Positions 2,276 through 54,508 of a stretch of 64,000 nucleotides of DNA are shown here, piece after piece. This DNA is from Nitrospirota bacterium (GTDB lineage: Bacteria; Nitrospirota; Nitrospiria; JACQBZ01). Made by a program: the position numbers and the translations under genes. Positions within the stretch are counted from its first letter, which is position 1. The number at the start of each line of letters is the position of its first letter. The stretch covers positions 385-64,384 of the forward strand of contig JACQBZ010000035.1 in NCBI GenBank assembly GCA_016194285.1, written 5' to 3'. The notes beneath the pieces are model-generated. The model was not told the DNA's origin. It was given only the letters and a program-made list of their open reading frames with translations, and did not search any database.

Positions 2276-3565
2276 TCATTCCCGGTCATAGTGGAGCCGT
2301 AGAAAATGTGTTGCGCATGAAATGCACGGATCATAATTGCGTATGGTTTGTTCGCACTGCAGTCCCAATTTTTCCTTGGGCAGATTGATATTCGCCTGCA
2401 CAAACCGCCGCAGATCATCCTCGATCATCTTCTGATTCTGGGACGTCGGCGGGACGATCTTCGCCTCCTGAATCACGCCCGCGTCATCCACGCGGTAGCG
2501 ATGATAGAGGATACCCCGCGGGGCTTCGGTGCAACCGTAACCGGTTCCCGCACGGGGCCGGATCGGAACGGCGGGCCGGGTCGGCCTCTCATAGCCGTCG
2601 ATGATCCGAATCGCCTCGTCGCACGCCTGGAGGATCTCGACGCTCCGGACGACGATACTGCGAAACGGATTGCGGCAGACGGCGGAAAGGCCGGCCGCGC
2701 GGGCCGCCTCCTGCGCAATCGGCGAGAGCCGGTCGAAGTTCAGGCTGTAGCGTGCGATCGGGCCGACCAGGTAAGCGCCCCGGTTCTTAAAGCGGGAATG
2801 CAAGGCGTGGCTGTGCGGAATCTGTTCTTCGACGAAGGAATCCTCGTACTCGCGCACCGAGATGTTCAAACCCCGGTTCGAGATCAGACGACCTTCATTA
2901 AAGGGATACTCAAAGGGATGACGAAGCCCGACGAATTCATAGTCCTGGTCAAACTCCGGAACCGGCAGCGTGGCCGTCCAGCGAACCGTCTCCAGCGCCG
3001 CCTCCCGCGCCCACCGGAGCCGCTCGGCCACCGGAGCGAGCTCGCTTTTGGTCGGCACCTTGTAGAAACCCCCGACACGCACGTTGATGGGATGAACCTC
3101 CCGCCCGCCCATCAAGCGGATAATCTCGTTCCCGGCCTTCTTGAGTTGAAGTCCACGCTCAACGATCCCGGGATGGTCTTTCGCCATCCGGAGGGCATCG
3201 GCATATCCCAGATAATCCGGCGCGTGAAGCAGGTACACATGAAGCGTATGGCTTTCGATCCATTCGCCGCAATAGATCAGACGGCGAAGCGCCCGGAGCG
3301 GGCCGTCCACCTCGACGCCGAAGGCGTTCTCCATTGCATGCACCGCGCTCATCTGGTAGGCGACGGGACAGATGCCGCAGATCCGCGCGGTGATGTCCGG
3401 CGCCTCGCCGAAGGCCCGCCCTCGCAACAGCGCCTCAAAAAAGCGCGGCGGCTCGAAGATCTCCAGCCGGACGTCCACGACCGCGTCGCCCTTGATCTTC
3501 ACAAAAAGCGCGCCCTCGCCCTCGATCCGTGCGAGATTACTGATCTTGATCGTTTTGTCTTTCAT
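2276..3565 (-). CDS. hyhL: [NiFe] hydrogenase large (alpha) subunit, group 3b (sulfhydrogenase/NAD(P)-linked type)
   Basis: N-terminal [10 protein letters not shown] and C-terminal DPCISCATH Ni-Fe ligand motifs. Last gene of a beta-gamma-delta-alpha array. Start set at [18 protein letters not shown] (ORF track start is 3598). Confidence 0.9.
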
Positions 3566-33235: not shown

Positions 33236-33530
33236 CGGCCTCTCCCCCGGGCGGTCGCGGAGCACCCCGGTGATCCTCGGGCTCCGGGATCTTCAGCTCC
33301 TCCAGAGCGCCGTCGATCTCCCGGAACAGTTCGAGCGTCTTCAAGGCTTCCTCCTCATCCATCTTGCTGATCGCAAAACCCACATGGACGATCACATAAT
33401 CGCCGAGCTTGACGTCCGGAATCCATTCCAGACAGACCCGCTTTTCGATCCCTCCAAAACTGGCCCGCCCCATTCGGGGCTGGACCGAATCCTCGATCTC
33501 CAACACTTTACCGGGAATGGCTAAACACAT
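33222..33530 (-). CDS. hypC: Hydrogenase maturation protein HypC
   Basis: N-terminal [12 protein letters not shown], the HypC/HupF signature with Cys2. Confidence 0.88.
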
Positions 33531-33536
33531 GGGTAT

Positions 33537-35882
33537 CTACTCCGTTTCAACCGCGACGACAGGATTCCTCATCGCTTTGGCCTTCTGGAGCGCGACAAAG
33601 ACCTGCCCCAGGGCGATCCCTCCGTCGTTCGGCGGAACCCGCCGATGCCAGTAAGGACGGAAGCCCGCCGCATCGAGCCGATGAACAACCCGTTCGGTCA
33701 GATATTTGTTCTGGAAGCATCCGCCGGTCAGGACGACCCGTTCTTCGCCGATCCGTTCGGCAACAACGACAATGATCTCGGCGAGTGTGTTGTGGAATTT
33801 GGCCGAGAGAATGCCGACGGAAACTTCACGCGCCAGGCCGTCGAGAATCTCCATGATCATCGGTTCCCAATCCACGACCTGCAGGGGCGATTCATACGTC
33901 TCCCCTGCTTCATGAATCCGAAACGGATACGCCTCCTCCGTCCGCTCGTTTCCGATCGCGAACTCCAGCTCCATCGCCGCCTGGCCTTCAAAACTGACCC
34001 GCTGACGGAGCCCGACGATCGAGGCCACCGCATCAAACAACCGTCCGACGCTGGAGGTCAGAGGCGAATGGATCCCCCGGGTCAGCATCGTCCGGAGCAC
34101 GGCCCGTTCGGCGGGGGCGAAGACCCGGCTCAAAAGAGGATCGCCCGGCTCAAACAATCGGTCGCCGATGATTTCGAACCTCACCCCGGCGGCCGTCCGC
34201 CGGGGCTCGTGGATGGCCGCCGCGCCGCCGGGCAGCCGGAACCTCCGAAACGAGGCGACACGCCGAAAGGAGGCCGCGTCCGTCAGTAAAAATTCGCCGC
34301 CCCAAATCGTCCCGTCGGTGCCGTAGCCGGCGCCGTCCCATGAAACGCCGAGGACCGATCCGTCGAGTTCGTTCTCGGCCATGCAGGACGCCACGTGGGC
34401 CCAATGGTGTTGAACCGCCGTGACGGGATCACCCTGACCCTTGGCATACCGGGTGGATATATAATCCGGATGAAGATCGCAAACCATCCGCTCCGGCCGA
34501 ACAGGGTAGAGTGTTCGAAAGCCGGAGATCACGTTTTGAAAGGCCTCAAAGGCTTCCCGGGTTTCCAGATCGCCGATGTGTTGACTGATAAAAACGTTGT
34601 GGTCCGCCGTCAGGGCCACGGCGTTCTTCAGATGCCCGCCGACCGCCAAGAGAGGCGGGGCAGGCTCCTTGAGACGAACGGGAAGCGGCGCGTAACCGCG
34701 GGATCGCCGCAGGACCAGCTCGCGTCCCATCATGATCCGGACCACCGAGTCATCCACGTGTCGGACGATGGGACGGTCATGAACCAGAAAGAGATCCGCG
34801 ATGTTGCCCAGCCGATCGACGGCCTCCCGCTCGTCCGTGCAGATCGGCTCATCCGATAAATTTCCGCTGGTCGCCACGACCGGGAAATCCAGCTCCCTCA
34901 TCAACACATGATGCAGCGGCGTGTAGGGCAGCATCACCCCGAGATCGGGATTGCCGGGAGCGACCGAAGGGGCGATGTCGGCGCGAGGCGTAAGGCGTGA
35001 GGCGTGAGGGGCGGGGGAGCGACGGAGCAAAACGATGGGCGACTCCGGCGAGAGAAGCAGGCGCGCCTCCGTCTCGGAAACCTCGCAGCGGGTCCGGACC
35101 GATTCAAGGGACGGGAACATCAGCGCGAACGGCTTCTCTTCGCGATGCTTGCGTTCCCGCAATCGGACCACGGCTCCTTCATGACGGGCGTCCGCCATCA
35201 AATGGAATCCGCCGAGGCCTTTGATCGCGACGATCTTCCCGGCGCGGATCGCCGCCGCCGCCTCGACCAACGCCTCCGGATGTTTGGAGAGAAGACGGGC
35301 CGTCCCGTCCCACAGCTCCAGATGAGGACCGCAGACCGGGCAGGCGTTGGGCTGTGCGTGAAACCGCCGGTCGAGCGGGTCTTCATACTCGCCGCGGCAG
35401 GCGTCGCACATCTCGAATTTTTTCATCGTCGTGTTGGCGCGATCATACGGAACGGATTCGATAATCGTGAACCGCGGCCCGCAGTGGGTGCAGTTCGTGA
35501 AGGGATAGAGATATCGCCGATTCGTCGGATCAAACAGTTCGCCCAAACACTCCGGACAGGTGGCGATGTCCGGAAGCACGAGCGCGGTCGGGACCCCGGC
35601 CTTGTCGCTGGGTCGAATCTCAAACCCGGCGTATCCGACGGGATCCCGGAATGAGAATTCAAGGCTCTGGATGAAGGAGCGGGGCGGCCTTTCCTTTTTG
35701 ATGCGGAGAAGGAATGCATCCAGCCGGGACTTGCTCCCCTCCGCCTCGATCACAATCCCTCGGGAGGAATTCAGGACCCAACCCGACAAACCCAGCTCGG
35801 TGGCCAGCCGGTGGATGAATGGACGGAAGCCGACCCCCTGCACGGCTCCCCGGACGGCGATCTGTACACGTTGGGTCATCAT
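33537..35882 (-). CDS. hypF: Carbamoyltransferase HypF
   Basis: Acylphosphatase-like N-terminus (VRGAVQGVGFRPF), two CxxC...CxxC zinc fingers, YrdC-like and Kae1-like regions. 781 aa. Confidence 0.92.
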   Translation of the reverse strand: MMTQRVQIAVRGAVQGVGFRPFIHRLATELGLSGWVLNSSRGIVIEAEGSKSRLDAFLLRIKKERPPRSFIQSLEFSFRDPVGYAGFEIRPSDKAGVPTALVLPDIATCPECLGELFDPTNRRYLYPFTNCTHCGPRFTIIESVPYDRANTTMKKFEMCDACRGEYEDPLDRRFHAQPNACPVCGPHLELWDGTARLLSKHPEALVEAAAAIRAGKIVAIKGLGGFHLMADARHEGAVVRLRERKHREEKPFALMFPSLESVRTRCEVSETEARLLLSPESPIVLLRRSPAPHASRLTPRADIAPSVAPGNPDLGVMLPYTPLHHVLMRELDFPVVATSGNLSDEPICTDEREAVDRLGNIADLFLVHDRPIVRHVDDSVVRIMMGRELVLRRSRGYAPLPVRLKEPAPPLLAVGGHLKNAVALTADHNVFISQHIGDLETREAFEAFQNVISGFRTLYPVRPERMVCDLHPDYISTRYAKGQGDPVTAVQHHWAHVASCMAENELDGSVLGVSWDGAGYGTDGTIWGGEFLLTDAASFRRVASFRRFRLPGGAAAIHEPRRTAAGVRFEIIGDRLFEPGDPLLSRVFAPAERAVLRTMLTRGIHSPLTSSVGRLFDAVASIVGLRQRVSFEGQAAMELEFAIGNERTEEAYPFRIHEAGETYESPLQVVDWEPMIMEILDGLAREVSVGILSAKFHNTLAEIIVVVAERIGEERVVLTGGCFQNKYLTERVVHRLDAAGFRPYWHRRVPPNDGGIALGQVFVALQKAKAMRNPVVAVETE

Positions 35883-36232
35883 CCTGACGACTCGGAGAGT
35901 TCGACCTCGACCACATCCAGCTCGTTTCCGGAAATCAATTCGACGCCTGCATTTCCGCAGTTCGGACAGAGAACGACGTAACGGCCGGCCTCAAAGCCCG
36001 CACCGCACGCCGTGCACAGACAACGAACCGGGACCGTTTCGATCTTGAGCTTTGCCCCCTGAGCGGCTGTTCCTTCGGTGGCCATTTCAAAACAGAACGC
36101 AAGCGATTCGGGAACGATGCGGGTAAAATCGCCCAGCTTCAACGTCACGGATTTTACGCTTCTCACCTCCCCCGACGGAAGATGTTGTCGCACCGCTTCT
36201 ACGATACCCCGCGCGATCGAGAGCTCATGCAT
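35879..36232 (-). CDS. hypA: Hydrogenase nickel-insertion protein HypA
   Basis: MHELSIARGIVEAV start and CLCTACG...CPNCG zinc site. 117 aa. Confidence 0.9.
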   Translation of the reverse strand: MHELSIARGIVEAVRQHLPSGEVRSVKSVTLKLGDFTRIVPESLAFCFEMATEGTAAQGAKLKIETVPVRCLCTACGAGFEAGRYVVLCPNCGNAGVELISGNELDVVEVELSESSG

Positions 36233-36731
36233 GGGCGTCGACCTTCCGAACGGGTTTTACGCCCAGGGACTCAAGTTCCCCGACCGCGGCATCGACCACG
36301 CGCGGGAGGACGGCTCGGAGCACCGGGGTGAGATCCAGACCGATTTCACGGACCTCCTGCGGTTGAACGCCGAGAATCCGGGTGAGGGGAAGCCTCCCCA
36401 GGAACCGGGCCACCGACAGCAGTTCCGCGACGCCGACTTCGTGGGCCGAGAAAAAGGGCCCCCGACGCGCGGATAGCTCTTCGGGGGTGAGGTGGTAGAT
36501 CGTCCCCGGCGGTTGCTGTCCGGATACGGCATCGATGATCAAGAGATGCTCCGCCCCTTCGAATTCGGACAGGCAGCGAAGACCGGCCACGCCCCCGTCG
36601 ATCAGCCGGACGCGGGCTGGCAGGTCATAGGTCTCGGCCAGGGTCCGAACGGCCCAAACACCGATGCCGTCATCCTGCATCAGCGTATTGCCCACGCCCA
36701 GAACAACGATGGACGGAGGAGCGCCCGTCAT
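36225..36731 (-). CDS. Hydrogenase maturation endopeptidase (HyaD/HybD/HupD family)
   Basis: VVLGVGNTLMQDDGIGVWAV motif. Follows the cytochrome b subunit with an ATGA overlap. Confidence 0.88.
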   Translation of the reverse strand: MTGAPPSIVVLGVGNTLMQDDGIGVWAVRTLAETYDLPARVRLIDGGVAGLRCLSEFEGAEHLLIIDAVSGQQPPGTIYHLTPEELSARRGPFFSAHEVGVAELLSVARFLGRLPLTRILGVQPQEVREIGLDLTPVLRAVLPRVVDAAVGELESLGVKPVRKVDAHA

Positions 36732-37399
36732 TTGCCGGCGCCTCCCCGACTCTCATGGACCTTGTATTTGTAACCGGTGATCATGGAACGAACCGTATGA
36801 TCGCGATGAATCCAGGTGTACATTGTCGCCATATAGACATGGATCGAGACCGTCACGATGAAGATCCACATCCCGATAAAGTGCCAGATTCGCGTGTAGG
36901 ATTCGCCCCCGAGCAGGAGGTTCACCCAGCCGAAGGCCGCCTGGGCCGAGAAAAGTCCGAAGACCTTCCCGTGGTACAGCGCGAATCCGGTCGCGGCCAT
37001 AAAGAGGATCAGGAACACCCAGAAAAGGTAGGTCAGGGCCTGCATCGGATTGTAACGGCGGTATTTCTTGTGCGTATCCTTGAGAAACAGATAGTACAGC
37101 AGCACGTCGGGGATGTTTTTGATGTTTTTCAAAATGCCAAAGTCCCGCCAGTCCGAGTCGAATGTCGAATTAAAGGCCAGGTAGACGCGCACGACCAACC
37201 CCAGGATAAAAATATAGGCCGCCGCAAAATGAAAAAACCTCATCCAGGCCATGACCGCGATGCCACCCGGCTCGCCACCAGGCAAAAAAGGCCAATGGAT
37301 GTAAAATCCCGTGACGGTCAGGACGGCCAGGGCCAGGACACGGACCCAGTGGTCGATCCGATAGGTCAGGTTCCATTCATACACATACTCGCGCTTCAT
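36728..37399 (-). CDS. Ni/Fe-hydrogenase b-type cytochrome subunit
   Basis: Four TM helices with conserved His (RIDHWVR, FHFAAAYIF, HFIGMW). Start placed at MKREYVYEW, 12 nt after the large-subunit stop. Confidence 0.85.
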   Translation of the reverse strand: MKREYVYEWNLTYRIDHWVRVLALAVLTVTGFYIHWPFLPGGEPGGIAVMAWMRFFHFAAAYIFILGLVVRVYLAFNSTFDSDWRDFGILKNIKNIPDVLLYYLFLKDTHKKYRRYNPMQALTYLFWVFLILFMAATGFALYHGKVFGLFSAQAAFGWVNLLLGGESYTRIWHFIGMWIFIVTVSIHVYMATMYTWIHRDHTVRSMITGYKYKVHESRGGAGK

Positions 37400-37410
37400 G
37401 GATTGCCTCG

Positions 37411-39000
37411 CTACGAAACCCGGACCTTGTAGACCGCGTTGCTTTCCGGGTCGATCACATGGACGGTGCACGCCAAACAGGGGTCAAAGGAATGGGCCAC
37501 GCGTAAGAGTTCCAGCGGCCGCTTGGGATCGGCCACCGGCGTCCCGATGAGGGCCTGTTCAATGGGTCCTTTGACCCCTTTCGCATCGCGGGGCGAGATG
37601 TTCCAGCAGGTCGGGGTGATCACCTGATAGTTGGCCAGCCGCCCCCGCTCGATCTGATTCCAATGTCCCAACGCGCCCCGAGGGGCTTCCCACAAGCCCA
37701 CCCCCTGCGCCTTCTGCGGCAGCTCATACGGGGTAAAGGTCTCCTTCTTTCCGGCCTTGAGATTTTCCATAATTTCGTTGGACCATTCCACCATGGCATC
37801 CGCAATGATCTTGGTCTCCAGGGCCCGCGCGGCGATTCGTCCCACCACGGAACAGAGGACCTCCGGCTTATCGGCGACGCCGAGCTGGCCGAGCGTCTGG
37901 TCAATAAGCTTTTTCGCGCTGGGGTTGCCCTTGGAATAAGCCACAACCATCCGGGCCAGGGCCCCCGTCTCCATCGGCCGGTCCCCGTAGCGGGGCGCTT
38001 TGGCCCAGGTGTATTTCTTTTCGACGTCCCAGGTCGTGAATTCCGGCTCCGTCACGCCCGTGCTCGGATGCTCCGGCGGACCGTTCTTGTACCAGCCGTG
38101 GGCGACGTCTTCCGTGACGGTTTTTTGATCCACTTCTTGAGCCTTGAAGCTGCAGTCCATGACGATCCCGCTGGGCAGAAGCCGGTTTTTCGAATCGAAG
38201 CTCGGAGCGTCGAAAACGCCCCAGGCCAGAAAGTTTCGCGACCCCGCGCCGATGCCGGCGTAGTCGAGGTAATACGGGGCGATCGCCAGGACATCCGGGA
38301 TATAGACATGGTCGACCCAATGCCGGATTTCTTCCAGCCGCGGGATCAGGTTCGCCATGTCATCCAGTGTCGGGATATGGACCGAGCCGCCGGCCGGGGT
38401 CGTCATCGTCATCGGCATCCGGCCGCCGAAGATGGCCGAGATATGGGAGGCCTGGGCCTGCTTGTCCAGCGCCTCAAGGTAATGGGCCACCGCCAGCAGG
38501 TTCAGCTCGGGGGGAAGTTTGTAGGCGGGATGTCCCCAGTAGGCGTTTGCGAACGGACCGAGCTGGCCTCCCTCCACGGATCTTCGCACGCGGGCCTGGA
38601 CGTCTTTTAAATAATGCTCCTTCGTCTCGGCCTTGAGCGCCGAGACGACATCCACGAAATCGAGCGCGGCCAGATGATAGAACCACAGGATATGGGAATG
38701 GAGGAACTGGGCGCCCTCCACCATGTTGCGAACGAGTCGGCCCATTTCGGGAGGATGAATGCCAACCGCACTTTCCAGACAGAGGGCGGCCGCATGGGAA
38801 TGGGAGGTGGGGCAAACGCCGCAGATCCGCTGAGTGATGTGATAGGCATCGCGCGGATCACGGTCTTTCAGGACGATTTCAAACCCGCGGAAAAGGGTCC
38901 CGGAGGCCCAGGCGTCCTTGACCTTTCCCCCTTCCACTTCGACCTCGATGGCCAAGTGCCCCTCGATGCGGGTGATCGGATCAATGATGATACGACTCAT
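37411..39000 (-). CDS. [NiFe] uptake hydrogenase large subunit (group 1, membrane-bound)
   Basis: DPITRIEGH, QRICGVCPTSH and C-terminal DPCLACTVHV motifs. Paired with a Tat-signal small subunit and cytochrome b. Confidence 0.92.
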   Translation of the reverse strand: MSRIIIDPITRIEGHLAIEVEVEGGKVKDAWASGTLFRGFEIVLKDRDPRDAYHITQRICGVCPTSHSHAAALCLESAVGIHPPEMGRLVRNMVEGAQFLHSHILWFYHLAALDFVDVVSALKAETKEHYLKDVQARVRRSVEGGQLGPFANAYWGHPAYKLPPELNLLAVAHYLEALDKQAQASHISAIFGGRMPMTMTTPAGGSVHIPTLDDMANLIPRLEEIRHWVDHVYIPDVLAIAPYYLDYAGIGAGSRNFLAWGVFDAPSFDSKNRLLPSGIVMDCSFKAQEVDQKTVTEDVAHGWYKNGPPEHPSTGVTEPEFTTWDVEKKYTWAKAPRYGDRPMETGALARMVVAYSKGNPSAKKLIDQTLGQLGVADKPEVLCSVVGRIAARALETKIIADAMVEWSNEIMENLKAGKKETFTPYELPQKAQGVGLWEAPRGALGHWNQIERGRLANYQVITPTCWNISPRDAKGVKGPIEQALIGTPVADPKRPLELLRVAHSFDPCLACTVHVIDPESNAVYKVRVS

Positions 39001-39018
39001 GGTTTAGTCCTCCGTCTT

Positions 39019-39137
39019 TTAGGAGCTTGCGTCGCGCCTATCATCTGTGGGGGCCCGTGCGGCTCGCTATTGCGAATTCTCCGATGCCCCCACGCCCCGC
39101 GCTCGGTCTGGCAAAGCCAGAACCTCGCTTTCTCCCT
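39019..39137. repeat. Diverged, expanded copy of the ~90-nt repeat family in the small/large subunit spacer
   Basis: TAGGAGCTTGCGTCGCGCCTA and CTGGCAAAGCCAG hairpins plus a CCTCGCTTTCTCCCTC tail parallel TAGGGGCTCGCGTCGCCCC, CCGGCAAAGCCGG and CCTCCCCCTCTCGC of the full copies. Confidence 0.55.
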
Positions 39138-40355
39138 CTACTTCTTCTTTTTCGATTCGTCCGTTTCCTCTTCGGGCTTTTCCTCCTTAAACCGTCCTTT
39201 GGCGGCCGTGCCGATCGCATGGGCCGCGATGCCCACAGCCGTGGCTGCACCGGCAACGAGGCCGATTTTGTCGGCGCCCGCTTCCACCCCGCCGATTCCC
39301 GGGATCCAGACTTCCGGGAGTCTTTCGTAGAATCCGGCGAATTTGTCTACCCAGTAGGGCTCCGCACAGCCGATGCAGGGAGCCCCCGCCCCAATGCACC
39401 AGCTCACCCGGTCGTTATAGCGCATCTTCGAGCAGTTGGCGTACGTGTCCGGTCCTTTGCAGCCCACCTTGTAGAGGCAGTAGCCGAGTTCTTCTTCCTT
39501 GCTGCCGAACCGCTCCACGAACCGACCCGCATCGAAGTGGGCCCGGCGTTCGCACTGATCATGGATCGTCTGACCGTAAAAGATCTTCGGCCGTCCGTGG
39601 CTGTCCAGTTCCGGAAGTCGGTTATTAATCAGATAATCCGTAATGGTGGCGACGAGAATCCCTTCATTGACGGGGCAGAGATCGAGGTTGATGCATTCCA
39701 CCCCCAGCGCTTCGCGGACCCCTTTCAATCCGGCCGGGTTCGGATTGCCGGCGGGCACTCCGCCCCAGGTGGCGCAGCTTCCCACCGCAATAATCGCCTT
39801 GGCCTTCTGCGCGAACTCCTTGCCGATGTCGATCATGTCGCGACGGGCAACCATTCCATAGCCCCGCTTGGTCGGGATCGCCCCCTCGATGATCAGGATG
39901 TAGCCGCCCTGTTTCAAGGCCCGCTGCAAAATCTCCTCGGCCTGGTAGCCGGCCGCCGCCATAATCGTCTCGTTGAAGTCCAGGCTCAATGTTTCCAGTA
40001 TCAGCTGTGCGGCATTCGGATAGTTGGCCTTGATGAGCGCTTCGGTGCAGCCGGTGTCTGAAGCGAAGTTCAACCAGATCACCGACGGCCGTTGGGCCAT
40101 CGCAGCGACCAACGCCTCGGCGATTTTGGGAACCCACATCGACCCGAGACCGAGGAGAGCCGCCGCGGTCCCGCAGACCTTGAGAAAGTCCCGCCGACTG
40201 ACCCCAAGAATCACCGAAGGTTCATTCCCTTGGACATCGGGCTCCTGAATCACCGGTAATCGGACACCCTTCCGATGACTCATCCCTGCAATGAGAGGCG
40301 GTTCAACCTCTTGAATGATCGGCAACTCCAAAGATGGACCGATATTATTCTGCAT
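39138..40355 (-). CDS. [NiFe] uptake hydrogenase small subunit (Tat signal, C-terminal membrane anchor)
   Basis: SRRDFLK twin-arginine motif, WLNFASDTGCTEA, distal Cys clusters, C-terminal helix IGLVAGAATAVGIAAHAIG. GGAGGA upstream of ATG 40355. Confidence 0.9.
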   Translation of the reverse strand: MQNNIGPSLELPIIQEVEPPLIAGMSHRKGVRLPVIQEPDVQGNEPSVILGVSRRDFLKVCGTAAALLGLGSMWVPKIAEALVAAMAQRPSVIWLNFASDTGCTEALIKANYPNAAQLILETLSLDFNETIMAAAGYQAEEILQRALKQGGYILIIEGAIPTKRGYGMVARRDMIDIGKEFAQKAKAIIAVGSCATWGGVPAGNPNPAGLKGVREALGVECINLDLCPVNEGILVATITDYLINNRLPELDSHGRPKIFYGQTIHDQCERRAHFDAGRFVERFGSKEEELGYCLYKVGCKGPDTYANCSKMRYNDRVSWCIGAGAPCIGCAEPYWVDKFAGFYERLPEVWIPGIGGVEAGADKIGLVAGAATAVGIAAHAIGTAAKGRFKEEKPEEETDESKKKK

Positions 40356-40431
40356 GGCGTCCTCCGTGCAAAACATAAAAGATTATCGTGCGATCTTTCG
40401 ACTACACATGCCTGTATTTCAAACTAAATAG

Positions 40432-40447
40432 TGCAATGCCTGTGCCA
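40432..40447 (-). promoter_or_regulatory. Sigma-54 promoter (TGGCAC-N5-TTGCA) for the uptake hydrogenase operon
   Basis: Minus-strand reading aTGGCACaggcaTTGCAct, with exact GG-N10-GC spacing. About 77 nt upstream of the small-subunit ATG. Confidence 0.8.
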
Positions 40448-40575
40448 TGTCCTGTTCCGGGGAACCGCCGATCTTGTTGCGAACAGAATCGTCCGATAAG
40501 ACGAGGAGATTTATTGGTGGAGTCAATGAAAACAGATCCGGGATGATCCATGATTCAAATTCGCAAATTCGTCTA

Positions 40576-40593
40576 TGTCTATAAAATTGGACA
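40576..40593. promoter_or_regulatory. Candidate enhancer-binding-protein site TGTCTA-N6-TGGACA
   Basis: One mismatch from the TGTCCA-N6-TGGACA palindrome. About 130 nt upstream of the sigma-54 promoter. Confidence 0.45.
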
Positions 40594-40644
40594 TGATTTT
40601 GTGAGAATTTGTCTCATAACCTGAATTTTCTGAGACTTAGGGTG

Positions 40645-40662
40645 CGTCCATGAAGATGGACA
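40645..40662. promoter_or_regulatory. Candidate enhancer-binding-protein site CGTCCA-TGAAGA-TGGACA
   Basis: Near-perfect 18-bp palindrome with the same half-sites and spacing as 51222-51239. About 200 nt upstream of the sigma-54 promoter. Confidence 0.5.
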
Positions 40663-40720
40663 TCTTTACATCTGTTCTTAGACAAGTGGACCGCGTTGGG
40701 GCTGGCCCGGGGACGTGAAC

Positions 40721-51044: not shown

Positions 51045-51095
51045 GGCAAATCCTCCTTTTTTTTCCCCTCATATCCTTCCCTATTATCATAATAA

Positions 51096-51110
51096 GCAAA
51101 GGCCATGCCA
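51096..51110 (-). promoter_or_regulatory. Sigma-54 promoter (TGGCAT-N5-TTGCT) upstream of the CBS/stress operon
   Basis: Minus-strand aaTGGCATggcctTTGCTt with correct GG-N10-GC spacing. About 52 nt upstream of ATG 51044. Confidence 0.7.
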
Positions 51111-51221
51111 TTCGTGGATAGAAACTGAATAGAACAAATTCGGCGGACCTCTTTATAAATCGAGGGTTAGACGGACATCGACGAAGCACGGCAGAAAGTC
51201 AGATTCAATGAAAAGAGGAAA

Positions 51222-51239
51222 TGTCCAATGACCTGGACA
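51222..51239. promoter_or_regulatory. Candidate enhancer-binding-protein site, perfect palindrome TGTCCA-ATGACC-TGGACA
   Basis: Read directly. About 115 nt upstream of the sigma-54 promoter. Same half-sites and spacing as 40645-40662. Confidence 0.5.
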
Positions 51240-51289
51240 GGAAAAAGCTCGTATGATTTTTTTTCATCGGGTTTTCAAAGGAGTTCTGA

Positions 51290-51307
51290 TGTCAAGGAGA
51301 ATGGACA
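51290..51307. promoter_or_regulatory. Candidate enhancer-binding-protein site TGTCAA-GGAGAA-TGGACA
   Basis: One mismatch from the palindrome. Second site upstream of the same promoter. Confidence 0.4.
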
Positions 51308-51335: not shown

Positions 51336-52712
51336 TTATTCGATGAGGTTGTAGCGCTTCAATTTATTGTAGAGAGTGGCCCGACTGATTCCCAAAAGTT
51401 TGGCCGCCCGGGACCGGTTCCCCTTCGCCTTCAGGGTGGCCTCCGTAATTTTTTCTTTCTCAACCGTTTCGGTGGCCGTTCGGATGACTTTGTATAACGC
51501 ATCGTCCGGCTGCTCGACCGATGGTTCCATGAAGAGGGCCTCCGCAGCGATCTCCGTGGCGGGATTCATCAACACCGCACGCTCGATCACATTTTCAAGC
51601 TCTCTCACATTCCCCGGCCATGGAGACTCGACTAAAAGTCTCAGGGCTTTCGGTGAGATTCGCTTGGGTTCGAGGCGATTCCGTTCGCAATACTTCTTGA
51701 TGAAGTGGTCCGCCAAAAGGGGGATATCCTCTCTCCGTTGTCGCAGGGGCGGAATCACGATCGGAACGACGGCCAGGCGATAGTAAAGATCCTCCCGGAA
51801 GGACTTCTTCTCGACGCTTTTTTTGAGATCTTTGTTGGTCGCGGCGATAACGCGGACGTCGACTTTAATGGTCTTGTTGCCTCCCACCGGCCGGATTTCA
51901 TTTTCCTGCAAGACCCGCAACAACTTCGACTGGAACGCCGGAGTGGTATCACCGATCTCGTCCAACAAGAGCGTCCCTCCATCGGCTTCTTCGAAAAGTC
52001 CCTTTTTATTGCTGACGGCTCCGGTAAAAGACCCCCGCACGTGACCGAACAACTCGCTCTCCAACAAGGTTTCGGGAAGGGCTCCGCAGTCGATCGCGAC
52101 GAACGGTCGCTCCCGTCTCGGACTTTGCTGATGGATCGCTCGCGCGAACAGCTCCTTGCCGGTCCCGGACTCTCCGTAGATCAGAATCGTGGTATGGCTG
52201 TTCGCCACCCGCTCGATCAGGCGAAAGAGATCCTGCATCGGCTTGCTCCGACCGATGATGTTGCCCAAGGCGCCCTCGACCCCGACTTTTTCCCGTAACC
52301 GTTCCACCTCCCGGGTCAGCCGATGCAGGTCCAGGGCCTTTTTCACCGTCAACGTGATCTCATCGTTGTTGATCGGCTTGGTCAGATAATCGTAGGCCCC
52401 TGCCTTCATCGCGGCCACGGCCGAATCAATCGTTCCATGCGCCGTGAGCACGATGCAGGGCAAGGTCGGTCTCATGCTTTTCACTTTCTTTAACAGCTCC
52501 AGGCCGCTCAATCCGGGCATCTTAAGGTCGGATATGATAAGATCAAACCACCCCGTTTCCAACTTCTTGATCGCCTCTTCTCCCGAAAAGGCGGTCACCA
52601 CGTCGTAGCCCCCTTTCCCAAGGACCTTTTTGAAGAGGCCGAGCATGTTGGGCTCATCATCGACCACCAGAATCCGATCGGACGTATTTTGGTCAGGAGC
52701 TGACGGACTCAT
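51336..52712 (-). CDS. Sigma-54-dependent response regulator (NtrC family: REC + AAA+ + Fis-type HTH)
   Basis: ILVVDDEPN..D..DLKMPG receiver. GESGTGKE Walker A. GSFTGA (GAFTGA variant). C-terminal AAKLLGISRATLYNKLKRY. Confidence 0.9.
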   Translation of the reverse strand: MSPSAPDQNTSDRILVVDDEPNMLGLFKKVLGKGGYDVVTAFSGEEAIKKLETGWFDLIISDLKMPGLSGLELLKKVKSMRPTLPCIVLTAHGTIDSAVAAMKAGAYDYLTKPINNDEITLTVKKALDLHRLTREVERLREKVGVEGALGNIIGRSKPMQDLFRLIERVANSHTTILIYGESGTGKELFARAIHQQSPRRERPFVAIDCGALPETLLESELFGHVRGSFTGAVSNKKGLFEEADGGTLLLDEIGDTTPAFQSKLLRVLQENEIRPVGGNKTIKVDVRVIAATNKDLKKSVEKKSFREDLYYRLAVVPIVIPPLRQRREDIPLLADHFIKKYCERNRLEPKRISPKALRLLVESPWPGNVRELENVIERAVLMNPATEIAAEALFMEPSVEQPDDALYKVIRTATETVEKEKITEATLKAKGNRSRAAKLLGISRATLYNKLKRYNLIE

Positions 52713-53958
52713 CGCGCGGACTTCTCCTTCGGTCTACCGGCAAATGAAGGTAAAACGTGGTCCCCCGGCCCGGGACGGTCTCGGCCGAGATCCGTCCTCC
52801 GTGGGCCTCCATAATGCTCTTGCAGATCGAGAGCCCGAGCCCCATCCCCTTTTTGCTCTTGGTCGTGAAGAACGGATGGAATATTTTGGACAGATGGTCC
52901 GGATCAATCCCCTGGCCGGTGTCGGTCACGGTGATGATCACTTCGTCCCCATCCGTCCGGCTGGCAGGCCCTCCGGCCAAACTGTCTTCCTGATCCTCGA
53001 TAGACGAAGTCGGTTTGGCCGTCAAGCTAACCGTCAAGGTTCCCCCGTCCGGCATCGCCTCGATCGCGTTGAAAAAGAGATTCACCAGCACCTGCCCCAC
53101 TTGCTGCGGATCCACCCAAATCTTCGGAAGCCCGTTCCGATCCTGAATCACGGGCCGAATGTTGGCCTTATGGAAACGGGGCGTGAGCAGATCGATGCTC
53201 TTCCGGATCATCTCCATCGGATCCATCTGTGTAAACTGCGGAGTGGCTTGACGGCCGAAATCCAAAAGGTCCTGCATGATTTTTTTGCAGCGCCGGGCCT
53301 CCTCTTCAATGATCTTCACGGACTGATACCGGGGATCCGTCGGATCCACCTCCGTCAGCAGATCCTGAGCGAACCCGATCACGATGCCCAGCGGGTTGTT
53401 GAACTCATGGGCAAGGGAGGCCGTCATCTCGCCAAAGGAGATCAGCCGCTCCGAGAGAATCAGTTGCCGCTCCTGATCCTGGGCCAGATCGCGGAATCGC
53501 CGTTCGCTTTCCCGAAGCGCTTCCTCCATCCGTTTGCGGTCGGTGATGTTCTGGATGAGGGCGGTGACGAAGATCTGTTCCCGCACGCTCACGGGGCTTA
53601 AGCTGATCTCGACGGGAATCTCGGTTCCATCCTTACGACGGCCGGTCAACTCAAGGCCGATGCCCATTGGCCGTGTGGTCAGGTGGGAAATATAATTAGC
53701 GCGATGGCCGCTGTGACGCTCTCGCAAATGTTCGGGCACCAAGGTTTCAACGAACCGGCCAAGCAGTTCATTCCGGTTGTAACCGAAGATCTTCTCGGTC
53801 TGCTCATTGATGAATAAAATGTGCCCCTCCCGGTTGATGATGACCACGGCATACGGAAGCGCCTCCATGACAGACATGAATAGCTCGTCCTTCAAAACAA
53901 GCGCTTCAACCGGTTGGGCTGATCCTTCGTCTAAACGATCCTGTTCCGAATGCGACAT
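52693..53958 (-). CDS. PAS-domain sensor histidine kinase
   Basis: PAS-like N-terminus, SLAHEFNNPL H-box, N/G boxes (NLFFNAIEAM, DTGQGI, GMGLGLSI). Confidence 0.88.
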   Translation of the reverse strand: MSHSEQDRLDEGSAQPVEALVLKDELFMSVMEALPYAVVIINREGHILFINEQTEKIFGYNRNELLGRFVETLVPEHLRERHSGHRANYISHLTTRPMGIGLELTGRRKDGTEIPVEISLSPVSVREQIFVTALIQNITDRKRMEEALRESERRFRDLAQDQERQLILSERLISFGEMTASLAHEFNNPLGIVIGFAQDLLTEVDPTDPRYQSVKIIEEEARRCKKIMQDLLDFGRQATPQFTQMDPMEMIRKSIDLLTPRFHKANIRPVIQDRNGLPKIWVDPQQVGQVLVNLFFNAIEAMPDGGTLTVSLTAKPTSSIEDQEDSLAGGPASRTDGDEVIITVTDTGQGIDPDHLSKIFHPFFTTKSKKGMGLGLSICKSIMEAHGGRISAETVPGRGTTFYLHLPVDRRRSPRDESVSS

Positions 53959-54058: not shown

Positions 54059-54427
54059 CTAGGGAGGGAGAAGATGTTCCCGAACCGTTTCTTTCAATAC
54101 GTCAATATCAATGGGTTTGACAAGATATTCCACGGCGCCCTTCAGAAAGGCCATCGCCCGCGTTTGATCGCCCGGATAAGTCGAGAGCATGACGACCTTG
54201 GTACCCGGCTCGAGATTTTTGACCCGATCCAGAATCGAAAAACCATCGATCGGACGCATCCGAATATCCACGAACACGAGATCAAACGGCTCCTCTTCAT
54301 GCCATCTCAGGGCCTGGTTCCCGTCGGTTGTTGTTCTAACTTCGTAACCCTCCTTTCCAAGGACTTTAGATAGAAGGCCAAGAAAATTCTCTTCGTCATC
54401 AATGACCAGGATTCTGGGATAACTCAT
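54059..54427 (-). CDS. Single-domain response regulator (CheY-like receiver)
   Basis: ILVIDDEENF...DLVFVDIRMRPIDG...KP. 122 aa. Confidence 0.88.
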   Translation of the reverse strand: MSYPRILVIDDEENFLGLLSKVLGKEGYEVRTTTDGNQALRWHEEEPFDLVFVDIRMRPIDGFSILDRVKNLEPGTKVVMLSTYPGDQTRAMAFLKGAVEYLVKPIDIDVLKETVREHLLPP

Positions 54428-54493
54428 TTTTTAACACTCGTTTCCAACGGCACGAAAATTCGACATGATGACCCACTGCTACTTCTATTACAA

Positions 54494-54508
54494 GCAAGAT
54501 ACGTGCCA
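54494..54508 (-). promoter_or_regulatory. Sigma-54 promoter (TGGCAC-N5-TTGCT) upstream of the receiver/kinase/activator operon
   Basis: Minus-strand aTGGCACgtatcTTGCTtg. About 67 nt upstream of ATG 54427. Confidence 0.75.

What the first reader, a model, noticed from the sequence alone, without database searches (positions are those of the whole stretch)
40432..40662. Near-consensus sigma-54 promoter plus two 18-bp palindromes upstream of the uptake hydrogenase
- On the minus strand, aTGGCACaggcaTTGCAct lies about 77 nt upstream of the small-subunit ATG.
- Further upstream are TGTCTA-TAAAAT-TGGACA (40576-40593) and CGTCCA-TGAAGA-TGGACA (40645-40662), at 130-215 nt. This is the usual distance for bacterial enhancer-binding-protein sites.
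- The same half-sites and 6-nt spacing recur upstream of the stress-operon sigma-54 promoter at 51096-51307.
Basis: partly seen in the sequence, partly recalled or inferred. Interest (0 to 1): 0.6.

Follow-up and report, generated by a model that had tools for sequence, protein, structure and literature searches.

The report
Sigma-54 enhancer promoter of uptake hydrogenase
The flagged DNA is a genuine, evolutionarily conserved sigma-54 promoter with two activator-docking sites that most likely puts a hydrogen-oxidising enzyme of an uncultured groundwater Nitrospirota bacterium under the same sensor/activator as a small set of stress-survival genes; the design is textbook, but this regulator, its DNA motif and its gene set do not appear in the papers I searched.

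Summary
TGGCACaggcaTTGCA (40447-40432, minus strand) lies 77 nt before the small-subunit ATG. Two dyads, TGTCCAattttaTAGACA and TGTCCAtcttcaTGGACG, start 146 and 215 nt upstream of it.

- **Conservation:** the promoter is kept in front of the orthologous hydrogenase in all 5 genomes that have it, and the dyads in 4 of them.
- **Motif:** it is TGTCYA-N6-TRGACA, with a free spacer.
- **Regulon in this genome:** only three places carry the two-dyad module, each before a sigma-54 promoter: the hydrogenase, the CBS/Hsp20/P-type ATPase/USP/HPF operon, and a phosphoribosyltransferase gene on another contig.
- **Link to the activator:** the module sits directly after the NtrC-type activator gene (51336-52712) in 7 genomes. 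Among 41 relatives it occurs only in genomes with a close orthologue of that activator.
- **Partner kinase:** it has a FixL/DosP-like PAS domain with the haem-ligand histidine, so low oxygen or redox is the likely signal. This step is inferred.

Verdict: a new member of a known kind. This scan has already reported sigma-54 stress regulons with shared palindromes in other genomes, including other Nitrospirota.

The parts
40432..40447 (-). Sigma-54 (-24/-12) promoter of the hydrogenase operon, TGGCACaggcaTTGCA. The predicted start is near 40421, giving a leader of about 67 nt.
   Evidence: Perfect match to the consensus. Conserved upstream of the orthologous small-subunit gene in G002, G003, G014 and G022. 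rpoN is present in the genome. The start site is inferred, not mapped.
40576..40593 (.). Proximal enhancer dyad, TGTCCAattttaTAGACA on the minus strand. It starts 146 nt upstream of the TGG.
   Evidence: It has the same position and half-sites in G002 (-146), G003 (-147) and G022 (-150).
40645..40662 (.). Distal enhancer dyad, TGTCCAtcttcaTGGACG on the minus strand. It starts 215 nt upstream of the TGG and 69 bp from the proximal dyad.
   Evidence: Conserved at -215 in G002 and -216 in G003. Spacing between the two dyads is 66-69 bp in 15 of 19 promoters compiled.
40679..40684 (-). Extra conserved half-site TGTCTA, 22 nt upstream of the distal dyad.
   Evidence: Invariant in the 4-genome alignment. 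In G022 the same position holds a full dyad, TGTCTAtcaattTAGACG. Its role is unknown.
40625..40632 (-). Conserved element between the two dyads, CAGAAAAT (consensus YWGAAAAY), 13 nt after the distal dyad.
   Evidence: Present at the same offset in the hydrogenase, CBS-operon and phosphoribosyltransferase promoters of family f1. Its role is unknown; a bend or an architectural protein is my inference.
33537..40355 (-). Genes driven by the promoter: Tat-signal small subunit 39138-40355, large subunit 37411-39000, cytochrome b 36728-37471, maturation protease 36225-36731, HypA 35879-36232 and HypF 33537-35882. The tightly packed same-strand array continues with HypC, HypD, HypE and multihaem cytochromes to about 22146.
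   Evidence: Pfam, NCBIfam and PDB matches. No other sigma-54 motif at <=1 mismatch lies inside the array. The operon's extent is inferred from packing only.
51095..51110 (-). Sigma-54 promoter of the CBS / zinc-ribbon / Hsp20 / P-type ATPase / USP / HPF-CSD operon, TGGCATggcctTTGCT.
   Evidence: Conserved directly after the activator gene in 7 genomes.
51222..51307 (.). The two enhancer dyads of the second promoter, 68 bp apart: 51222-51239 (perfect TGTCCAggtcatTGGACA) and 51290-51307 (TGTCCAttctccTTGACA).
   Evidence: Conserved in G001, G002, G003, G007, G014 and G022.
51336..52712 (-). Candidate activator: an NtrC-type response regulator and enhancer-binding protein. It has a receiver domain with Asp62, an AAA+ domain with GESGTGKE and a GSFTGA loop, and a Fis-type HTH (LGISRATLYNKLKRY).
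   Evidence: Pfam, sequence, PDB relatives NtrC1/NtrC4/ZraR. No NCBIfam equivalog reaches its cut-off. Orthologues and HTH conservation.
52693..53958 (-). Partner soluble histidine kinase with one FixL/DosP-like PAS domain.
   Evidence: Pfam. The PAS domain aligns without gaps to the FixL and DosP haem domains, E about 1e-16, with the proximal histidine conserved. That histidine is kept in the G001, G002 and G003 orthologues.
54059..54508 (-). Single-domain receiver gene (54059-54427) and the regulatory operon's own sigma-54 promoter, TGGCACgtatcTTGCT (54493-54508). This promoter has no TGTCYA dyad.
   Evidence: The promoter is conserved in G001, G002, G003 and G022, also without the dyad.

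Best explanation
The region 40432-40684 is the control region of a periplasmic, cytochrome-b-linked [NiFe] uptake hydrogenase operon (hydSLC, its protease and hyp genes, possibly also the downstream cytochromes).

Proposed mechanism:
1. RNA polymerase with sigma-54 binds TGGCAC-N5-TTGCA as a closed complex.
2. Dimers of the NtrC-type response regulator encoded at 51336-52712 bind the two TGTCYA-N6-TRGACA dyads, 69 bp apart and centred about 165 and 235 nt upstream of the predicted start.
3. Once phosphorylated by the adjacent soluble PAS kinase, they assemble into the active ATPase ring.
4. The ring reaches the promoter by DNA looping and opens it.

The same activator drives two other promoters of identical design: the CBS/Hsp20/P-type ATPase/USP/ribosome-hibernation operon directly downstream of its own gene, and a phosphoribosyltransferase gene on contig C14. 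The hydrogenase is therefore an accessory member of a small survival regulon.

Shown:
- the sequence elements and their conservation;
- their exclusive association with sigma-54 promoters;
- their co-occurrence with this activator.

Inferred:
- binding by this particular activator (about 80% likely);
- a low-oxygen or redox signal sensed by a haem-type PAS domain (about 50%);
- looping helped by a bend at the conserved GAAAA element between the dyads (speculative).
For: **Promoter**
- Perfect consensus, correct strand, 77 nt before an ATG preceded by GGAGG.
- rpoN and about 12 full-length activator genes are present in the genome.
- Conserved before the hydrogenase in 5 of 5 genomes, while the flanking sequence averages 60% column identity.

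**Sites**
- Half-sites and positions are kept and spacers are free in G002, G003 and G022.
- The same two-dyad module occurs at the CBS-operon promoter in 7 genomes.
- It also occurs at the phosphoribosyltransferase promoter in 4 genomes.
- A profile of the module finds exactly these three places in the 2.31-Mb genome (E about 1e-13). The next hit has E 0.24.

**Link to the activator**
- The module lies immediately after its stop codon in 7 genomes.
- Among 41 relatives, the composite pattern (dyad plus sigma-54 motif) occurs in 9 of 11 genomes with a >=67% orthologue and in 0 of 30 without. Fisher 1.6e-7, though related genomes are not independent.
- Class-wide there are 14 hits in 12 of 401 genomes and 0 with the reversed control pattern. 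None is in 228 genomes of family f2 or 84 of f15.
- Among 80 loci with homologues of the activator from many phyla, only the 82% orthologue has the module beside it. The three 66-70% homologues and the 76 more distant ones do not.
- The HTH GISRA(T/S)LYNK is kept in all orthologues down to 55% identity and differs in paralogues.

**Signal**
- The kinase PAS domain aligns over about 124 residues to the FixL and DosP haem-PAS domains, with the proximal His conserved.
- The hydrogenase is closest to the Desulfovibrio periplasmic [NiFe] enzymes, which I recall to be oxygen-sensitive.
- The regulon's gene content resembles low-oxygen regulons, such as NmpR of Myxococcus (PMC11841059).
Against: - There is no transcript, start-site or binding data.
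- G014 keeps the sigma-54 promoter before its hydrogenase, but I found no dyad in the 235 nt available before the contig ends.
- Three genomes of one genus (g32, family f7) have the composite pattern but only about 50%-identical activator homologues with a different HTH.
- The activator's own operon has a conserved sigma-54 promoter without the dyad, so another activator acts in the circuit.
- Spacing of 68-69 bp (about 6.5 helical turns) between dyads is unusual for NtrC-type enhancers. I found no E. coli-type IHF consensus.
- The PAS domain lacks the FixL residues Arg206 and Arg220. Orthologous activators in families f5 and f8 pair with a different, Cys-rich PAS kinase. The signal is therefore uncertain.
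- The activator's sigma-54 contact loop reads GSFTGA rather than GAFTGA.
Confidence: 0.8

Rival explanations
1. The promoter and dyads are real, but the dyads are bound by one of the other roughly 11 sigma-54 activators in the genome, not the one at 51336-52712. On this view the adjacency to that gene is only a by-product of gene order.
For: - The genome has about 12 full-length activator genes.
- The regulatory operon's own promoter lacks the dyad.
- Genus g32 has the composite pattern without a close orthologue.
- The GISRATLYNK-type HTH is not very distinctive among this protein family. This is my own knowledge, not tested here.
Against: - The module lies directly after this gene in 7 genomes from four genera of two families.
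- The pattern occurs in 9 of 11 genomes with the orthologue and 0 of 30 without.
- No other activator gene lies next to any of the three target promoters in G000.
Confidence: 0.1
2. The activator is a HoxA/HupR-type hydrogen-responsive regulator. The circuit would then switch the hydrogenase on in response to H2 rather than to oxygen or redox state.
For: - HoxA and HupR are NtrC-family response regulators that control uptake hydrogenase operons. HoxA acts at sigma-54 promoters with upstream sites (my knowledge; context in PMC4377017).
- This activator also has a PAS kinase partner.
Against: - No regulatory (HoxBC/HupUV-type) hydrogenase was found. The only other hits to the large-subunit family are partial, group-3/4-like matches.
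- Activator orthologues occur in six genomes in which no hydrogenase orthologue was found: G001, G007, G011, G019, G031 and G036.
- The conserved core targets are stress genes, not the hydrogenase.
- The kinase PAS domain resembles haem oxygen sensors.
Confidence: 0.05
3. The dyads are operators for a conventional, non-AAA+ transcription factor such as a CRP/FNR-like or other dimeric regulator. That factor would modulate or repress the promoters, and the true enhancer sites would lie elsewhere.
For: - The 6-N6-6 dyad resembles CRP/FNR-family sites in layout (my knowledge).
- In G022 a CRP/FNR-like gene ends just upstream of the regulatory operon.
- A cNMP-binding-domain gene lies at 25089-25640.
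Against: - The sites lie 118-216 nt upstream of the -24 element. That is far from where a repressor or a class I/II activator works, and it is the typical enhancer range.
- Sigma-54 promoters need an AAA+ activator, and no other shared dyad is visible in the three promoters.
- The sites occur only with sigma-54 promoters.
Confidence: 0.04
4. The matches are chance look-alikes with no regulatory role.
For: The raw genome-wide counts of the dyad pattern and of the promoter pattern are each close to the shuffled expectation.
Against: - Conservation across genera in otherwise diverged intergenic DNA.
- Identical geometry at three unlinked promoters.
- No hits with the reversed control pattern in 401 genomes, against 14 with the true pattern.
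- P about 1e-6 or lower for the co-location.
Confidence: 0.01

Closest known systems
NtrB/NtrC at glnAp2 and other two-component NtrC-family enhancer systems (AtoSC, ZraSR, Aquifex NtrC1/NtrC4)
   Same: - Same receiver-AAA+-Fis-HTH activator architecture. The best solved relatives are NtrC4 (4l4u) and NtrC1 (1ny5).
- A cognate kinase is encoded upstream.
- Dyad-symmetric upstream sites in pairs.
- A -24/-12 promoter.
   Different: - The motif is TGTCYA-N6-TRGACA.
- The dyads are 68-69 bp apart rather than adjacent or about three turns apart.
- The targets are a hydrogenase and stress genes, not nitrogen assimilation.
- No NCBIfam equivalog model reaches its cut-off.
HoxJ-HoxA-HoxBC (Cupriavidus necator) and HupT-HupR-HupUV control of uptake hydrogenases
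   Same: An NtrC-family response regulator with a PAS kinase controls a membrane-bound uptake [NiFe] hydrogenase operon. In C. necator this is through a sigma-54 promoter (my knowledge).
   Different: - No H2-sensing regulatory hydrogenase was found.
- The regulator also occurs in genomes where no such hydrogenase was found, and its core targets are stress genes.
- The kinase sensor domain resembles haem oxygen sensors.
NmpRSTU of Myxococcus xanthus (McAllister et al. 2025, PMC11841059)
   Same: - An NtrC-like response regulator activates sigma-54 promoters through paired dyads.
- The regulon holds universal-stress-protein genes and is upregulated under hypoxia.
- A haem-dependent kinase starts the pathway.
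   Different: - NmpR binds GCGCA-N5-TGCGC, with sites 14-15 bp apart.
- Myxococcales homologues are only about 46-50% identical, which is paralogue level.
- No hydrogenase is reported in the NmpR regulon: the word occurs 0 times in the paper.
DosS/DosT-DosR dormancy regulon of mycobacteria, and FixL-FixJ
   Same: - Gene content: small heat-shock protein, USP, CBS protein, cation P-type ATPase, ribosome hibernation factor, phosphoribosyltransferases. In M. smegmatis a hydrogenase is also under a haem-kinase-controlled low-oxygen regulon (my knowledge, not tested here).
- The PAS domain aligns to the FixL haem domain with the proximal His conserved.
   Different: - DosR and FixJ are NarL/LuxR-type regulators acting at sigma-70-type promoters. 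Here the output is an AAA+ activator with sigma-54.
- DosS and DosT sense through GAF domains.
- FixL Arg206 and Arg220 are not conserved here.

Membership tests
Sigma-54-dependent (-24/-12) promoter | GG and GC dinucleotides exactly 10 nt apart, within the TGGCAC-N5-TTGCW consensus. | tested here: met
   TGGCACaggcaTTGCA at 40447-40432, 0 mismatches.
Sigma-54-dependent (-24/-12) promoter | The organism encodes sigma-54 and enhancer-binding proteins. | tested here: met
   One rpoN hit (PF04552, 207 bits). Twelve full-length PF00158 matches plus one cut by a contig end and two weak partial ones.
Sigma-54-dependent (-24/-12) promoter | Intergenic, correctly oriented, and conserved before orthologous genes. 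| tested here: met
   It lies 77 nt before the ATG and is conserved in 5 of 5 hydrogenase loci.
Sigma-54-dependent (-24/-12) promoter | The transcript starts about 12 nt after the GC, and expression depends on rpoN. | not testable with these tools
Enhancer (UAS) of a bacterial enhancer-binding protein | Dyad-symmetric sites, usually two or more, about 80-250 nt upstream of a sigma-54 promoter. | tested here: met
   Two dyads start at -146 and -215 from the TGG. The layout is the same at the two other promoters.
Enhancer (UAS) of a bacterial enhancer-binding protein | The same motif recurs at the regulon's promoters and is conserved in half-sites but not in the spacer. | tested here: met
   Nineteen promoters were compiled and the N6 spacer is free. 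The module profile hits only the three promoters in G000.
Enhancer (UAS) of a bacterial enhancer-binding protein | Physical binding by the activator, and dependence of transcription on the sites. | not testable with these tools
   This needs EMSA, DAP-seq or reporter assays.
NtrC-type response-regulator enhancer-binding protein | A receiver domain with a phospho-acceptor Asp, an AAA+ domain with Walker A/B and the GAFTGA loop, and a C-terminal Fis-type HTH. | tested here: met
   Pfam Response_reg, Sigma54_activat and HTH_8. The sequence shows D62, GESGTGKE, LLLDEIGD and GSFTGA, a one-residue variant of GAFTGA. PDB relatives are NtrC4 and NtrC1.
HoxA/HupR hydrogen-sensing circuit | A regulatory (group 2b, HoxBC/HupUV) hydrogenase that signals to the kinase. 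| tested here: not met
   Only one full-length PF00374 hit, the uptake enzyme itself. The other hits are partial. The genome is 88.6% complete, so absence is not proven.
HoxA/HupR hydrogen-sensing circuit | The regulator co-occurs with the hydrogenase genes and is dedicated to them. | tested here: not met
   Activator orthologues occur in G001, G007, G011, G019, G031 and G036, where the hydrogenase search found no match.
FixL/DosP-type haem-PAS sensor | A PAS domain homologous to the haem-binding PAS, with the proximal histidine. | tested here: met
   Ungapped alignment to 1dp6/1y28 (E about 1e-16) and to DosP. The His in ...PEHLRERH... aligns to the His in the FixL and DosP haem-binding segment. 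That this His is the proximal ligand is from my memory. It is conserved in three orthologues.
FixL/DosP-type haem-PAS sensor | Distal-pocket residues (FixL Arg220 and Arg206, DosP Met95) and actual haem binding. | tested here: not met
   The aligned residues are Leu, Asn and Ile. Haem binding itself cannot be tested here.
NmpR regulon (Myxococcus) | Binding consensus GCGCA-N5-TGCGC, with sites 14-15 bp apart. | tested here: not met
   Here the motif is TGTCYA-N6-TRGACA and the dyads are 66-69 bp apart.

The most novel reading that the evidence does not exclude
A lineage of uncultured groundwater Nitrospirota uses a FixL-like haem kinase and a dedicated sigma-54 activator as its low-oxygen 'dormancy' switch, a functional counterpart of mycobacterial DosR. 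This switch would directly couple an oxygen-sensitive uptake hydrogenase, and possibly the hyp genes and outer-membrane cytochrome conduit packed behind it, to oxygen loss. It would act through an unusual enhancer: two dyads held 68-69 bp apart around a conserved GAAAA element, which implies a bent or wrapped enhancer complex rather than the usual adjacent sites.
Probability: 0.35. Interest if true: 0.55.

Novelty: new member of a known kind. Interest (0 to 1): 0.38.

Why it matters
- **Regulation of hydrogenases outside Proteobacteria is poorly known.** Here a complete, conserved circuit can be read from sequence: sensor kinase, activator, DNA motif and three target promoters. That gives specific, cheap experiments for an organism that cannot be grown.
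- **Physiology.** The circuit suggests that in these groundwater Nitrospirota, H2 oxidation is switched on together with proteostasis, ion pumping and ribosome hibernation genes, as part of a survival programme rather than in response to H2.
- **Annotation.** The motif TGTCYA-N6-TRGACA, with its fixed geometry, can be used to annotate the regulon in related genomes. In relatives it adds Hsp20, cytochrome c and multicopper-oxidase-like genes.
- **Limits.** The mechanism itself is textbook, and this scan has already met several similar sigma-54 stress regulons.

Tried and rejected
- **IHF site.** No match to WATCAANNNNTTR at <=1 mismatch on either strand within the 260 nt upstream of any of the four promoters. 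Three HU/IHF-family genes exist.
- **Rfam.** The leader and intergenic region give only far-sub-threshold noise, so there is no riboswitch.
- **Sigma-70 and terminator scan.** The three sigma-70-like hits (9 of 12 matches each; 0.7 expected from shuffles) and the one terminator-like hairpin (0.9 expected) are weak. Two of the three sigma-70-like hits are on the opposite strand and the third overlaps the start codon.
- **The repeat finder.** It returned nothing because the arms are only 6 nt long.
- **More regulon members in G000.** The eight other near-matches to the dyad have no sigma-54 motif nearby and mostly lie inside ORFs. The module profile finds nothing more.
- **A middle third dyad between the two sites.** I found no consistent match (inspection).
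- **Autoregulation of the kinase/activator operon through the same dyad.** Rejected: that promoter is conserved but has no dyad.
- **Literature.** I found no paper with this motif or this regulator.
- **Earlier scan notes.** The look-alike search found no related stretch.
- **Extending the link to genus g32.** This failed: those genomes have only about 50%-identical homologues.
Full report
**1. Observation**

On the minus strand the window reads TGGCAC-aggca-TTGCA at 40447..40432. GGAGG follows at 40365-40361 and the small-subunit ATG at 40355, 77 nt after the TTGCA.

TGTCCAattttaTAGACA is at 40593..40576 and TGTCCAtcttcaTGGACG at 40662..40645. Their starts lie 146 and 215 nt upstream of the TGG, 69 bp apart.

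The second locus is also as described. TGGCATggcctTTGCT is at 51110..51095, with a perfect TGTCCAggtcatTGGACA (51239..51222) and TGTCCAttctccTTGACA (51307..51290) 68 bp apart.

Chance:
- In the window, the dyad pattern TGTCYA-N6-TRGACA at <=1 mismatch has 4 matches against 0.16 expected. None of 100 shuffles reached 4.
- The promoter pattern alone is not unusual: 3 matches against 1.2 expected.

**2. Gene context**

Downstream of the promoter, all on the minus strand:
- a small subunit with a Tat motif (SRRDFLK at residue 53);
- a large subunit closest to the Desulfovibrio periplasmic [NiFe] enzymes (1h2a, E 2e-160);
- a b-type cytochrome and the maturation protease;
- HypA, HypF, HypC, HypD and HypE;
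- then multihaem cytochromes.

The genes overlap or lie close together. No other sigma-54 motif at <=1 mismatch lies inside this array.

Upstream on the same strand lie:
- a nicotinate phosphoribosyltransferase and a Lon-like protease;
- an operon of CBS pair, zinc ribbon, Hsp20, P-type ATPase, USP and HPF-cold-shock fusion;
- the NtrC-type activator (51336-52712);
- a soluble PAS histidine kinase (52693-53958);
- a single-domain receiver (54059-54427).

The genome is 2.31 Mb in 102 contigs and 88.6% complete. It has one rpoN and about 12 full-length activator genes. Earlier scan notes and the titles of orthologous records place it among uncultured groundwater Nitrospirota.

**3. Genome-wide test**

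- At <=1 mismatch the dyad occurs 14 times in the genome. That is within the shuffled range of 8-19.
- Six of the 14 form three pairs, 68-69 bp apart. Each pair lies upstream of one of the 33 good sigma-54 motifs.
- The three promoters are the hydrogenase, the CBS operon and a phosphoribosyltransferase gene on contig C14. At C14 the dyads start at -148 and -216.
- Expected co-locations are 0.027. P is about 5e-13, or 1.6e-6 if each pair counts once.
- The eight remaining near-matches have no sigma-54 motif nearby.
- A profile of the whole two-dyad module finds only these three places, at E about 1e-13. The next hit has E 0.24.

**4. Conservation**

*Hydrogenase promoter.* Orthologues of the small subunit exist in four of 40 relatives: G002, G003, G014 and G022.
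- All four have a sigma-54 motif at the same place.
- G002 and G003 keep both dyads at -146/-147 and -215/-216.
- G022 has two dyads at -150 and -244.
- G014 shows none in the 235 nt available before its contig ends.
- In the four-genome alignment the invariant islands are the half-sites, an extra TGTCTA half-site, a CAGAAAAT element, the -24/-12 element and the ribosome-binding site with its ATG. Mean column identity is only 60%.

*CBS-operon promoter.* It follows the activator gene in seven genomes. The dyads start at about -118 to -132 and -184 to -200, and the spacers vary freely.

*Phosphoribosyltransferase promoter.* It is conserved in G000, G002, G003 and G007.

*All promoters together.* Across 19 promoters, the spacing between the two dyads is 66-69 bp in 15.

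**5. Which activator**

- Clear orthologues (67-84% identity, against about 50% for paralogues) occur in G001, G002, G003, G007, G014, G022, G011, G019, G031 and G036.
- The composite pattern (perfect dyad, 100-130 nt, sigma-54 motif) occurs in 12 of 401 genomes of the class, with 14 hits.
- The reversed control pattern gives 0 hits.
- There are no hits in 228 genomes of family f2 or 84 genomes of f15.
- Within the 41 relatives it is found in 9 of the 11 genomes with the orthologue and in 0 of 30 without. Fisher gives 1.6e-7, but related genomes are not independent.
- Among 80 loci with homologues of the activator from many phyla, only the 82% orthologue carries the module next to the gene. 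The three 66-70% homologues and the 76 more distant ones do not.
- The HTH GISRA(T/S)LYNK is conserved in orthologues and differs in paralogues.

Exceptions:
- Genus g32 has the pattern without a close orthologue.
- The regulatory operon's own conserved sigma-54 promoter lacks the dyad, so it is not simply autoregulated.

**6. Signal**

- The kinase has a single PAS domain that aligns without gaps to the haem-PAS domains of B. japonicum FixL and E. coli DosP, at E about 1e-16.
- The aligned histidine, which I recall as the haem-proximal ligand, is conserved.
- It is also kept in the G001, G002 and G003 orthologues.
- FixL Arg206 and Arg220 are not conserved.
- In families f5 and f8 the orthologous activator is paired with a different, Cys-rich PAS kinase.
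- No H2-sensor hydrogenase is evident.
- Activator orthologues occur in six genomes where the hydrogenase search found no match.

I therefore favour an oxygen or redox signal (about 50%) over H2 (about 5%). In relatives the same module also precedes Hsp20, cytochrome c and two-domain multicopper-oxidase-like genes. That fits a low-oxygen or respiratory-stress theme.

**7. Mechanism**

The best-supported reading is a standard enhancer-dependent promoter:
1. The sigma-54 holoenzyme sits at -24/-12 as a closed complex.
2. Phosphorylated activator dimers sit on the two dyads.
3. They oligomerise, loop over to the promoter and open it using ATP.

Shown here are the elements, their conservation and their co-occurrence with the activator. 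Binding, looping and the signal are inferred.

The fixed spacing of 68-69 bp (about 6.5 helical turns) and the conserved YWGAAAAY element 13 nt after the distal dyad are not explained by the textbook model. They may mark a bend or an architectural protein. I found no E. coli-type IHF consensus.

**8. Comparison and novelty**

- The activator is a member of the NtrC-type response-regulator family. It is not an equivalog of any named regulator.
- It works like HoxA in that it controls an uptake hydrogenase through sigma-54. It fails two HoxA-circuit features.
- It works like NmpR of Myxococcus in gene set and probable signal. The motif and spacing differ.
- I found no paper on this motif or regulator.
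- This scan has already reported sigma-54 stress regulons with shared palindromes in other genomes, including other Nitrospirota.

It is therefore a new member of a known kind and of moderate interest. What this case adds is a named candidate activator and kinase, a three-promoter regulon that includes a hydrogenase, and an unusual enhancer geometry.

**9. Limits**

The genome is incomplete. Related genomes are not independent samples.

Noticed in passing
window 40625-40632; also the CBS-operon promoter (about 51265-51272) and L001 about 3400-3407: A conserved YWGAAAAY element lies 12-14 nt after the distal dyad in the hydrogenase, CBS-operon and phosphoribosyltransferase promoters of family f1. 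It may be a bend or the site of an architectural protein. It does not match the E. coli IHF consensus.
   Followed up: partly
window 40679-40684: An extra TGTCTA half-site lies 22 nt upstream of the distal dyad and is invariant in four genomes. In G022 the same position holds a full dyad. The CBS-operon promoter similarly has a TAGACA half-site 2 nt before its distal dyad.
   Followed up: partly
window 54493-54508: The receiver/kinase/activator operon has its own perfect sigma-54 promoter. It is conserved in G001, G002, G003 and G022 but has no TGTCYA dyad and only about 115 nt of intergenic DNA. This implies a second activator, or enhancer sites inside the neighbouring gene.
   Followed up: partly
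L012, L014, L015 and L017 (kinase genes next to the activator orthologues of G014, G011, G019 and G036): In families f5 and f8 the orthologous activator is paired with a kinase whose PAS domain is Cys-rich (GEKC...EPCxxCP) instead of FixL-like. The sensor was swapped while the output was kept.
   Followed up: partly
L027, L029, L030 (multicopper-oxidase-like); L028 (Hsp20); L039 (cytochrome c): In relatives the same dyad-plus-sigma-54 module precedes two-domain multicopper-oxidase-like genes (possibly NirK-like), an Hsp20 gene and a cytochrome c gene. The regulon's membership varies by lineage.
   Followed up: partly
L036, L037, L038 (genomes G055, G061 and G087, genus g32): Overlapping TGTCTA/TAGACA dyads plus a sigma-54 promoter precede a secreted His-rich protein with no Pfam match. 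These genomes have no close orthologue of the activator.
   Followed up: partly
(family f1 against families f5 and f8): Half-sites are mostly TGTCCA/TGGACA in family f1 but TGTCTA/TAGACA in f5 and f8. This parallels a change just after the HTH (KLKRY against K[MIL]R[QRL]Y). It may be co-variation of protein and site.
   Followed up: no
window 40206-40355: The hydrogenase small subunit has a 50-residue N-terminal extension before the Tat motif. Its start and ribosome-binding site are conserved in the four relatives.
   Followed up: no
window 33266-33530: A HypC gene (MCLAIPGKV...) fills the apparent 271-nt gap between HypF and HypD. The hyd-hyp-cytochrome array from 40355 down to about 22146 is therefore nearly gap-free.
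   Followed up: partly
window about 2306-3445, minus strand: A second [NiFe]-hydrogenase-like large subunit has a 442-aa open frame. Only its N- and C-terminal ends match PF00374, so it is probably a group 3 or 4 type.
   Followed up: no
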